From: Escherichia phage T7
Reading direction: 5' to 3' (one strand)
Length of the DNA: 36,942 nt
Sequence record: MZ318361
Under the pieces are notes generated by a model, which worked only from the letters and a program-made list of their open reading frames with translations, did not search any database and was not told where the DNA came from. The position numbers and the translations under genes are program-made. Shown one piece after another: positions 20,443 through 21,537 of this stretch. Every line of letters begins with the position of its first letter. The stretch's first letter is position 1.

Positions 20443-21537
20443 ATGGCTAGCATGACTGGTGGACAGCAAATGGGTACTAACCAAGGTAAAGGTGTAGTTG
20501 CTGCTGGAGATAAACTGGCGTTGTTCTTGAAGGTATTTGGCGGTGAAGTCCTGACTGCGTTCGCTCGTACCTCCGTGACCACTTCTCGCCACATGGTACG
20601 TTCCATCTCCAGCGGTAAATCCGCTCAGTTCCCTGTTCTGGGTCGCACTCAGGCAGCGTATCTGGCTCCGGGCGAGAACCTCGACGATAAACGTAAGGAC
20701 ATCAAACACACCGAGAAGGTAATCACCATTGACGGTCTCCTGACGGCTGACGTTCTGATTTATGATATTGAGGACGCGATGAACCACTACGACGTTCGCT
20801 CTGAGTATACCTCTCAGTTGGGTGAATCTCTGGCGATGGCTGCGGATGGTGCGGTTCTGGCTGAGATTGCCGGTCTGTGTAACGTGGAAAGCAAATATAA
20901 TGAGAACATCGAGGGCTTAGGTACTGCTACCGTAATTGAGACCACTCAGAACAAGGCCGCACTTACCGACCAAGTTGCGCTGGGTAAGGAGATTATTGCG
21001 GCTCTGACTAAGGCTCGTGCGGCTCTGACCAAGAACTATGTTCCGGCTGCTGACCGTGTGTTCTACTGTGACCCAGATAGCTACTCTGCGATTCTGGCAG
21101 CACTGATGCCGAACGCAGCAAACTACGCTGCTCTGATTGACCCTGAGAAGGGTTCTATCCGCAACGTTATGGGCTTTGAGGTTGTAGAAGTTCCGCACCT
21201 CACCGCTGGTGGTGCTGGTACCGCTCGTGAGGGCACTACTGGTCAGAAGCACGTCTTCCCTGCCAATAAAGGTGAGGGTAATGTCAAGGTTGCTAAGGAC
21301 AACGTTATCGGCCTGTTCATGCACCGCTCTGCGGTAGGTACTGTTAAGCTGCGTGACTTGGCTCTGGAGCGCGCTCGCCGTGCTAACTTCCAAGCGGACC
21401 AGATTATCGCTAAGTACGCAATGGGCCACGGTGGTCTTCGCCCAGAAGCTGCAGGAGCTGTCGTATTCCAGTCAGGTGTGATGCTCGGGGATCCGAATTC
21501 GAGCTCCGTCGACAAGCTTGCGGCCGCACTCGAGTAA
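20443..21537 (+). CDS. gp10: Engineered major capsid protein (gene 10, residues 1-348) fused in frame to a polylinker-encoded tail
   Basis: 364-aa ORF MASMTGGQQMG...AVVFQSGVML then GDPNSSSVDKLAAALE encoded by GGATCC GAATTC GAGCTC..GTCGAC AAGCTT GCGGCCGC..CTCGAG TAA. Confidence 0.95.
   Translation: MASMTGGQQMGTNQGKGVVAAGDKLALFLKVFGGEVLTAFARTSVTTSRHMVRSISSGKSAQFPVLGRTQAAYLAPGENLDDKRKDIKHTEKVITIDGLLTADVLIYDIEDAMNHYDVRSEYTSQLGESLAMAADGAVLAEIAGLCNVESKYNENIEGLGTATVIETTQNKAALTDQVALGKEIIAALTKARAALTKNYVPAADRVFYCDPDSYSAILAALMPNAANYAALIDPEKGSIRNVMGFEVVEVPHLTAGGAGTAREGTTGQKHVFPANKGEGNVKVAKDNVIGLFMHRSAVGTVKLRDLALERARRANFQADQIIAKYAMGHGGLRPEAAGAVVFQSGVMLGDPNSSSVDKLAAALE
21489..21534 (+). other. Synthetic multiple cloning site (BamHI, EcoRI, SacI, SalI, HindIII, NotI, XhoI) in frame at the 3' end of gene 10
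   Basis: Seven palindromic restriction sites packed contiguously in 46 bp. Confidence 0.95.

What the first reader, a model, noticed from the sequence alone, without database searches (positions are those of the whole stretch)
21440..21485. Recoding of the gene 10 frameshift region: 10A/10B slip site removed, PstI site created
The sequence reads GAAGCTGCAGGAGCTGTCGTATTCCAGTCAGGTGTGATGCTC, encoding ...EAAGAVVFQSGVML in a single frame. Wild-type T7, as I recall it, has ...GCTGCTGGTGCAGTGGTTTTCAAAGTGGAG with a -1 frameshift producing the minor 10B form. Here the 10B-frame residues are hard-wired and a CTGCAG site appears at 21449-21454, so all capsid subunits are the fusion form.
Basis: partly seen in the sequence, partly recalled or inferred. 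Interest (0 to 1): 0.4.

Follow-up and report, generated by a model that had tools for sequence, protein, structure and literature searches.

The report
Engineered T7Select capsid-gene cloning junction
This is the man-made end of the capsid gene in the commercial T7Select415-1b phage-display vector, where the natural ribosomal frameshift was designed out so every capsid subunit carries the cloning-site tail; it is already known and ordinary.

Summary
Compared with wild-type T7 (V01146), window 21451-21486 carries 12 nucleotide substitutions in 10 of 12 consecutive codons. All 12 are synonymous in the 10B reading frame. One extra base joins the 10A and 10B frames into a single ORF. The preceding 336 codons are identical to wild type. 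The slippery heptamer GGTTTTC is now CGTATTC, and a unique PstI site sits at 21449-21454.

The window is not a natural phage. It is the Novagen/Merck T7Select415-1b display vector with the holin gene 17.5 deleted, almost certainly GenBank MZ318361 (PMC8365609).

After residue 349 the natural 10B tail is replaced by a BamHI-EcoRI-SacI-SalI-HindIII-NotI-XhoI cloning site, followed by a stop codon and then the T-phi terminator. The recoded stretch also holds the standard T7SelectUP primer site (21454-21473).

The capsid protein is therefore one 364-residue species on all subunits. That outcome is inferred from the sequence and from vector literature; no protein was examined.

One side point: the recoded serine codon TCA mutated to TAA in the passage-10 and passage-20 sibling genomes, which removes the tail.

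Novelty: already known. Interest: low.

The parts
20363..20385 (+). T7 phi10 class III promoter (TAATACGACTCACTATAGGGAGA), with transcription start at 20380
   Evidence: Identical to V01146. Annotated as phi10 at 20380 in the sibling record MZ318362.
20401..20401 (+). T-to-C change in the phi10 leader that destroys the wild-type XbaI site (TCTAGA becomes CCTAGA)
   Evidence: Alignment; restriction-site list.
20443..21537 (+). Engineered gene 10: a single ORF of 364 codons. Residues 1-349 equal wild-type 10B. They are followed by DPNSSSVDKLAAALE and TAA.
   Evidence: ORF list. Zero amino-acid differences from virtual wild-type 10B over residues 1-348. Pfam Gp10A-like, E = 8e-115.
21449..21454 (+). 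Unique PstI site (CTGCAG) created by the GCT-to-GCA and GGT-to-GGA changes
   Evidence: one site in the window, none in V01146.
21451..21486 (+). Recoded stretch, codons 337-348. It has 12 synonymous substitutions at 21453, 21456, 21459, 21462, 21465, 21471, 21472-21474, 21477, 21480 and 21486. One added base (C at 21469) fuses the 10A frame to the 10B frame.
   Evidence: Codon-by-codon comparison; alignment with V01146.
21462..21468 (+). Position of the former -1 slippery heptamer. Wild type is G_GTT_TTC; here it is C_GTA_TTC.
   Evidence: Heptamer identity from PMC5009743 and PMC1635266.
21454..21473 (+). T7SelectUP primer site (GGAGCTGTCGTATTCCAGTC)
   Evidence: Exact single match. Named as the T7SelectUP primer in PMC2955716 and PMC10076258. 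The string occurs in 31 papers.
21472..21474 (+). Recoded Ser344 codon TCA (AGT in the wild-type 10B frame). It is mutated to TAA in the sibling genomes from passages 10 and 20.
   Evidence: Table 2 of PMC8365609: S344stop.
21489..21534 (+). Multiple cloning site: BamHI, EcoRI, SacI, SalI, HindIII, NotI/EagI, XhoI
   Evidence: None of these sites exists in wild-type T7. The stretch from the cloning site through T-phi also matches a small vector-like plasmid record in PLSDB.
21535..21546 (+). TAA stop codon, with overlapping engineered SpeI (ACTAGT) and HpaI (GTTAAC) sites
   Evidence: Wild type reads CTAGCATAACCCC; the window reads CTAGTTAACCCC.
21544..21589 (+). T-phi transcription terminator. 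It contains the T7SelectDOWN primer site (21560-21579, minus strand) and the CCCC element reported as a long-range frameshift stimulator.
   Evidence: Annotated as T-phi in MZ318362. CCCC element from PMC5009743.

Best explanation
The feature is a deliberately engineered junction at the 3' end of gene 10 in the T7Select415-1b phage-display vector. The window is a holin-deleted derivative of that vector.

In wild-type T7, about 10% of ribosomes slip -1 on G_GUU_UUC and make the longer minor capsid protein 10B. The rest stop three codons later and make 10A.

In the vector, the designers inserted one base so that the 10B frame continues directly from the 10A frame. They changed the heptamer to C_GUA_UUC, on which neither the Val tRNA nor the Phe tRNA can re-pair in the -1 frame. 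They silently recoded ten codons around it and cut 10B off after residue 349. They then added a multiple cloning site, a stop codon and the T-phi terminator.

The result is a single capsid protein species: 364 residues when empty, or a 10B-insert fusion when an insert is cloned. It is expected on all 415 subunits when no helper plasmid supplies 10A.

The additional silent changes create a unique PstI site. They also create a vector-specific primer site (T7SelectUP) that differs at 8 of 20 positions from wild-type gene 10.

Shown here: the sequence changes, loss of the heptamer, the single ORF, the vector identity and the primer site. Inferred: absence of frameshifting and a uniform capsid composition.
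For: - **Recoding:** The alignment with V01146 shows the recoding and a net +1 base. There are 12 synonymous substitutions in codons 337-348 versus none in codons 1-336 (Fisher p = 4e-19).
- **Slip site:** GGTTTTC is lost, and it is the only in-frame slippery element that differs from wild type.
- **Restriction sites:** Eight restriction-site types absent from wild-type T7 cluster at 21449-21534.
- **Identity of the window:** It differs by only 5 and 9 bases from MZ318362 and MZ318363 over the same 36,942-bp length. The source paper says the parent phage was T7Select415-1b, with two deletions and a cloning site at the end of gene 10 (PMC8365609).
- **Primers and junction peptide:** The T7SelectUP and T7SelectDOWN primers match exactly at 21454-21473 and 21560-21579. 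The junction peptide MLGDPN is used by T7Select users as the marker of the coat-protein frame (PMC11612773).
- **Frameshift literature:** G_GUU_UUC is the T7 gene 10 shift site and gives about 10% 10B (PMC5009743; PMC1635266). Novagen's helper plasmid p5403 also lacks the natural frameshift sequence, because three mutations were needed to restore it.
- **Rarity:** No phage record among 50,697, other than the two siblings, holds the recoded junction.
Against: Nothing contradicts this reading. No protein-level data were examined here, so the single capsid species is an inference. I could not retrieve the vendor manual or Rosenberg et al. 1996. The design rationale for the extra silent changes (PstI site, primer specificity, reduced homology with the helper 10A gene) therefore rests on my inference. 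The vendor's own statement that the natural frameshift site was removed from these vectors is my recollection only.
Confidence: 0.97

Rival explanations
1. This is a natural T7-like variant in which evolution fused the 10A and 10B frames and lost the frameshift.
For: Capsid proteins of related phages do vary at the C-terminus. The backbone is otherwise about 99.9% T7.
Against: There are 12 clustered, exclusively synonymous changes next to 1008 unchanged bases. They are followed directly by seven cloning sites, none of which exists in wild-type T7. The stretch matches commercial primer sequences exactly. It is absent from all other phage records searched. The source paper states that the phage is T7Select415-1b.
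Confidence: 0.005
2. The recoding was done mainly for handling reasons, and loss of the frameshift is a by-product of fusing the frames. Such reasons would be a unique PstI site, a vector-specific PCR and sequencing primer site, and less homology with the helper plasmid's 10A gene so that recombination cannot remove inserts.
For: Two or three substitutions plus one inserted base would be enough to fuse the frames and stop slippage, yet 12 substitutions were made. T7SelectUP lies wholly inside the recoded stretch. By my count from the alignment, it mismatches wild-type gene 10 at 8 of 20 positions. The helper plasmid carries a gene 10 whose sequence is closer to wild type in this region.
Against: The heptamer itself was specifically changed at two positions (GTG GTT TTC became GTC GTA TTC). 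The helper plasmid, which needs no primer site, also had its frameshift sequence mutated. This indicates that removing the frameshift was itself a design goal. The two aims are compatible rather than exclusive.
Confidence: 0.3
3. This is an assembly or annotation artefact, for example vector sequence wrongly joined into a wild-type T7 assembly.
For: The record lacks the right 160-bp terminal repeat. No SphI site is present although the paper says one was introduced. The deposited sequence is therefore not a perfect representation of the phage.
Against: Three independently sequenced passages share the junction. The reading frame is intact, and the junction fits a functional capsid gene with the promoter, ribosome-binding site and terminator in place. 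A mutation, S344stop, arose inside the junction during passage, which shows that it is replicating phage DNA.
Confidence: 0.01

Closest known systems
T7Select415-1b phage-display vector (Novagen/Merck), gene 10 cloning cassette
   Same: - T7 backbone with deletions in the early region and in gene 3.8.
- Wild-type phi10 promoter and s10 ribosome-binding site.
- Capsid gene reading ...VVFQSGVMLGDPNS..., followed by a BamHI-to-XhoI cloning site.
- T7SelectUP and T7SelectDOWN primer sites.
- T-phi terminator.

   Different: The window additionally lacks gene 17.5 (the holin; V01146 36344-36552). It carries an 11-nt substitution after gene 18 that creates a second XhoI site and a second BamHI site. 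It also has about 20 point differences from V01146. None of these touches the junction itself.
Wild-type T7 gene 10 programmed -1 ribosomal frameshift (10A/10B; Condron, Atkins and Gesteland 1991)
   Same: The gene is the same, the protein sequence is identical up to residue 349 of 10B, and the downstream T-phi terminator with its CCCC element is retained.
   Different: The slippery heptamer G_GTT_TTC is replaced by C_GTA_TTC. The 0-frame stop codon (TAA) of 10A is gone. The two frames are fused by one added base. Residues 350-398 of 10B are deleted. The terminator now lies about 80 nt from the former shift site, compared with about 180 nt in wild type.
Novagen helper plasmid p5403 (10A supply in strain BLT5403)
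   Same: This is also an engineered gene 10 in which the natural frameshift sequence was mutated. Three mutations were needed to restore it (PMC1635266).
   Different: It encodes 10A only, not a 10B-cloning-site fusion. It retains a BsgI site near the 3' end of gene 10. GTGCAG spans the wild-type codons GGT GCA GTG and is lost in the window, so p5403 may be wild type at those codons.

Membership tests
T7Select415-type display vector | The capsid gene is fused in frame to 10B residues and cut shortly after ...GVMLG, with junction peptide MLGDPNS leading into the cloning site. | tested here: met
   The ORF at 20443-21537 ends ...QSGVMLGDPNSSSVDKLAAALE*. T7Select users employ MLGDPN as the frame marker (PMC11612773).
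T7Select415-type display vector | T7SelectUP and T7SelectDOWN primer sites flank the cloning site. | tested here: met
   Exact single matches at 21454-21473 (+) and 21560-21579 (-). Primer names confirmed.
T7Select415-type display vector | A multiple cloning site made of restriction sites that are absent from wild-type T7. | tested here: met
   BamHI, EcoRI, SacI, SalI, HindIII, NotI and XhoI lie at 21489-21534. V01146 has none of them.
T7Select415-type display vector | High-copy (415) type: the strong phi10 promoter and s10 translation start are unaltered. | tested here: met
   The promoter and ribosome-binding site are identical to V01146 apart from one base, at 20401, in the leader's XbaI site. 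That this feature distinguishes 415-1 from 1-1 and 10-3 is my own knowledge.
T7Select415-type display vector | Backbone deletions in the early region (genes 0.3-0.7) and in gene 3.8. | tested here: met
   V01146 positions 579-2746 and 11163-11515 are absent. The paper describes the same two deletions.
Programmed -1 ribosomal frameshift site (T7 gene 10 type) | An in-frame slippery heptamer of the form X_XXY_YYZ (G_GUU_UUC in T7). | tested here: not met
   GGTTTTC is absent from gene 10 in the window; position 21462-21468 reads CGTATTC. No new in-frame slippery tetramer or heptamer appears.
Programmed -1 ribosomal frameshift site (T7 gene 10 type) | A 0-frame stop shortly after the shift site, with an open -1 frame that extends the protein. 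| tested here: not met
   One continuous ORF runs through the site. At the junction, one alternative frame is closed by a stop (...LSYSSQV*) and the other encodes no 10A or 10B tail residues.
Programmed -1 ribosomal frameshift site (T7 gene 10 type) | A distant 3' stimulator: the CCCC sequence in the T-phi terminator. | tested here: met
   AACCCCTTGGGG is retained at 21544 (element described in PMC5009743). It has no frameshift role here because the shift site is gone.

The most novel reading that the evidence does not exclude
The recoding itself is known engineering. The least ordinary reading concerns the Ser344 codon. Recoding it from AGT to TCA created a one-step route to a stop codon. During serial passage on a host without helper plasmid, the phage fixed TCA-to-TAA by passage 10 (S344stop in MZ318362 and MZ318363). 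That mutation removes the 21-residue tail from every subunit and gives a protein of about 10A length. If this sweep was driven by selection rather than hitchhiking, a 10B-type extension on all 415 subunits carries a measurable fitness cost. That would bear on why wild-type T7 keeps 10B at about 10%. It would also be a built-in instability of T7Select415 libraries.
Probability: 0.3. Interest if true: 0.25.

Novelty: already known. Interest (0 to 1): 0.05.

Why it matters
It matters mainly for bookkeeping. The window is a laboratory vector genome deposited as 'Escherichia phage T7', so its gene 10 end should not be treated as natural variation or as evidence about how frameshifting evolves. The sibling records annotate this ORF as a 'minor capsid protein ... 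produced by a -1 frameshift', which is misleading because no frameshift exists in this construct. The only biological interest lies in the S344stop mutation that arose inside the recoded stretch during passage.

Tried and rejected
- **GenBank record:** I tried to fetch MZ318361, the presumed identity of the window, but it is not in the collections. Identity therefore rests on three points: the 5-9 base differences from the siblings, agreement with all but one entry of the F1 column of Table 2 (the exception is 14103), and the F1-only G780R change in gene 12.
- **Primary frameshift papers:** I tried to read PMC209055, PMC328964 and PMC5952207, and the T7 display review (PMID 29115536). None is held. 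I used the Atkins 2016 review and Slootweg 2006 instead.
- **Vendor statement:** I searched for a published sentence saying that the frameshift site was removed from T7Select vectors. Only indirect statements turned up.
- **Rfam:** A scan of 20300-21700 at E up to 1 found no RNA family.
- **Plasmid search:** Only the stretch from the cloning site to the terminator matched vector-like plasmids. The recoded stretch matched none.
- **Rejected readings:** natural variation and assembly artefact; see the rival explanations.

Full report
**1. The observation**

It lies in a single ORF, 20443-21537, of 364 codons. The product ends ...GLRPEAAGAVVFQSGVMLGDPNSSSVDKLAAALE*. Pfam identifies the protein as a Gp10A-like major capsid protein, E = 8e-115.

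CTGCAG occurs once in the window, at 21449-21454. Wild-type T7 (V01146) has no PstI site.

**2. Comparison with wild type**

I built the virtual 10B reading of V01146: the 0 frame through TTC of the heptamer at 23986-23992, then the -1 frame. I compared it with the window codon by codon.

- Codons 1-336 are identical at the nucleotide level.
- Codons 337-348 carry 12 substitutions in 10 codons, and every one is synonymous: GCT>GCA, GGT>GGA, GCA>GCT, GTG>GTC, GTT>GTA, CAA>CAG, AGT>TCA, GGA>GGT, GTA>GTG, CTG>CTC.
- At the DNA level there is one extra base, which puts the 10B frame in frame with 10A.
- Twelve changes in 36 nt against none in 1008 nt gives Fisher p = 4e-19.

The wild-type heptamer G_GTT_TTC is now C_GTA_TTC. 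It is the only in-frame slippery element that differs between the two genes. From codon 350 onward the natural 10B tail (49 residues) is replaced.

**3. What the surroundings show**

- Right after Gly349 comes a run of BamHI, EcoRI, SacI, SalI, HindIII, NotI/EagI and XhoI sites (21489-21534). It is followed by TAA, engineered SpeI and HpaI sites, and the T-phi terminator at 21544-21589.
- None of these cloning sites exists in wild-type T7.
- The phi10 promoter and s10 ribosome-binding site are wild type, apart from one T-to-C change at 20401 that removes the leader's XbaI site.

Across the whole window, the sequence is T7 with three stretches missing:

- V01146 579-2746 (early genes 0.3-0.7), lost between 11-bp direct repeats.
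- V01146 11163-11515 (gene 3.8).
- V01146 36344-36552 (gene 17.5, the holin).

**4. Identity of the window**

Two GenBank records of exactly the same length (36,942 bp) differ from the window by 5 and 9 bases. They are MZ318362 and MZ318363, named 'T7_del_holin_F10' and 'F20'.

Their source paper (PMC8365609) states that the parent was T7Select415-1b from Merck. [quoted passage not shown]

The window's point differences from V01146 reproduce the passage-1 (F1) column of the paper's Table 2, including the F1-only G780R change in gene 12. The one exception is position 14103. The window is therefore almost certainly MZ318361, which the collections do not hold.

Three further checks agree with this identification.

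- The commercial T7SelectUP primer GGAGCTGTCGTATTCCAGTC matches once, at 21454-21473, entirely inside the recoded stretch. T7SelectDOWN matches at 21560-21579 on the minus strand. Both primer names are confirmed in PMC2955716 and PMC10076258, and the UP string occurs in 31 papers.
- T7Select users treat the peptide MLGDPN as the marker of the coat-protein frame (PMC11612773).
- Among 50,697 phage records, only the two siblings hold this junction.

**5. Mechanism**

Established knowledge: in wild-type T7, ribosomes shift -1 on G_GUU_UUC in about 10% of passages and produce 10B instead of 10A. A CCCC sequence in the terminator, more than 200 nt downstream, contributes to the shift (PMC5009743; PMC1635266).

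Shown here: the heptamer is destroyed, the 10A stop codon is gone, and the frames are fused.

Inferred: neither the Val tRNA (GUA to CGU) nor the Phe tRNA (UUC to AUU) can re-pair in the -1 frame, so no programmed shift occurs. Every subunit should then be the 364-residue form, or a fusion to a cloned insert. This fits the description of T7Select415 as displaying on every capsid protein without a helper plasmid.

Novagen's helper plasmid also lacks the natural frameshift sequence, since three mutations were needed to restore it. Removing the frameshift was therefore a design aim of the system. From memory, the vendor manual says the natural frameshift site was removed so that a single capsid form is made; I could not retrieve that text.

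**6. Why so many silent changes**

Two or three changes would have been enough to stop slippage. The extra ones create the PstI site and make the T7SelectUP site differ from wild-type gene 10 at 8 of 20 positions (my count from the alignment). The primer should therefore anneal to vector DNA but not to a gene 10 copy that is wild type in this region. Reduced homology with the helper gene next to the insert is another plausible reason. These are inferences, and the vendor's design notes would settle them.

**7. Rivals**

- Natural variation is excluded by the clustered, purely synonymous pattern, by the cloning sites, by the primer matches and by the source paper.
- An assembly artefact is unlikely because three sequenced passages share the junction, and a mutation arose within it during passage.

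**8. Side observation**

The recoded Ser344 codon TCA is one step from a stop codon, whereas the wild-type AGT is not. The passage-10 and passage-20 genomes carry C21473A, giving TAA (S344stop). The capsid protein then ends ...AVVFQ at 343 residues and loses the tail.

In the parts of the paper I read, the mutation is listed in Table 2 but not discussed. It could be selected or could have hitchhiked, and I could not test which.

**9. Verdict**

The feature is a known, man-made element of a commercial cloning vector. Novelty: already known. Interest: low.

Noticed in passing
window 21472-21474 (compare MZ318362 and MZ318363, L004/L005, at 21473): The recoded Ser344 codon TCA became TAA in the passage-10 and passage-20 sibling genomes. 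The capsid protein is cut to 343 residues and the display tail is lost on all subunits. The wild-type AGT codon could not reach a stop in one step. The source paper lists S344stop in its Table 2; I found no discussion of it in the sections I read.
   Followed up: partly
window 33988-33998: An 11-nt substitution, CTCGAGAGGAT in place of wild-type TATACTCAAGG (V01146 36823-36833), lies directly after the gene 18 stop codon. It creates a second XhoI site (33988) and a second BamHI site (33995). It replaces sequence just upstream of the annotated E. coli promoter E. I could not tell whether it comes from the vector or from the authors.
   Followed up: partly
whole window; holin junction at 33717/33718: The source paper says an SphI site was introduced when the holin-deleted genome was joined, but GCATGC occurs nowhere in the window. 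The gene 17.5 deletion is a clean 209-bp removal (V01146 36344-36552), whereas the paper gives 204 bp.
   Followed up: partly
window 20401: A T-to-C change in the phi10 leader removes the wild-type XbaI site (TCTAGA becomes CCTAGA). The promoter and ribosome-binding site are otherwise unchanged.
   Followed up: yes
window 568-578: The early-region deletion (V01146 579-2746, genes 0.3 to most of 0.7) lies between two copies of an 11-bp direct repeat, AAGTCGCACGA. This pattern is typical of a spontaneous repeat-mediated deletion. The paper gives its coordinates as 579-2717.
   Followed up: partly
window 36942 (right end): The record ends at V01146 39777. The right copy of the 160-bp terminal repeat is therefore missing, while the left copy (1-160) is present.
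   Followed up: yes
window 5527: A 3-bp deletion within a TAGTAGTAG repeat in gene 1.4 removes one residue. It is shared with the sibling genomes and is listed in the paper's Table 2.
   Followed up: yes
L001/L004: MZ318362 CDS 20443-21474: The sibling records annotate the engineered gene as a 'minor capsid protein ... produced from gene 10 by a -1 frameshift'.
   Followed up: yes
window 14103: The window has G (wild type) at this position, whereas Table 2 of the paper lists G-to-A (gene 5.3 V49I) already in passage 1. This is the only disagreement between the window and the F1 column.
   Followed up: no
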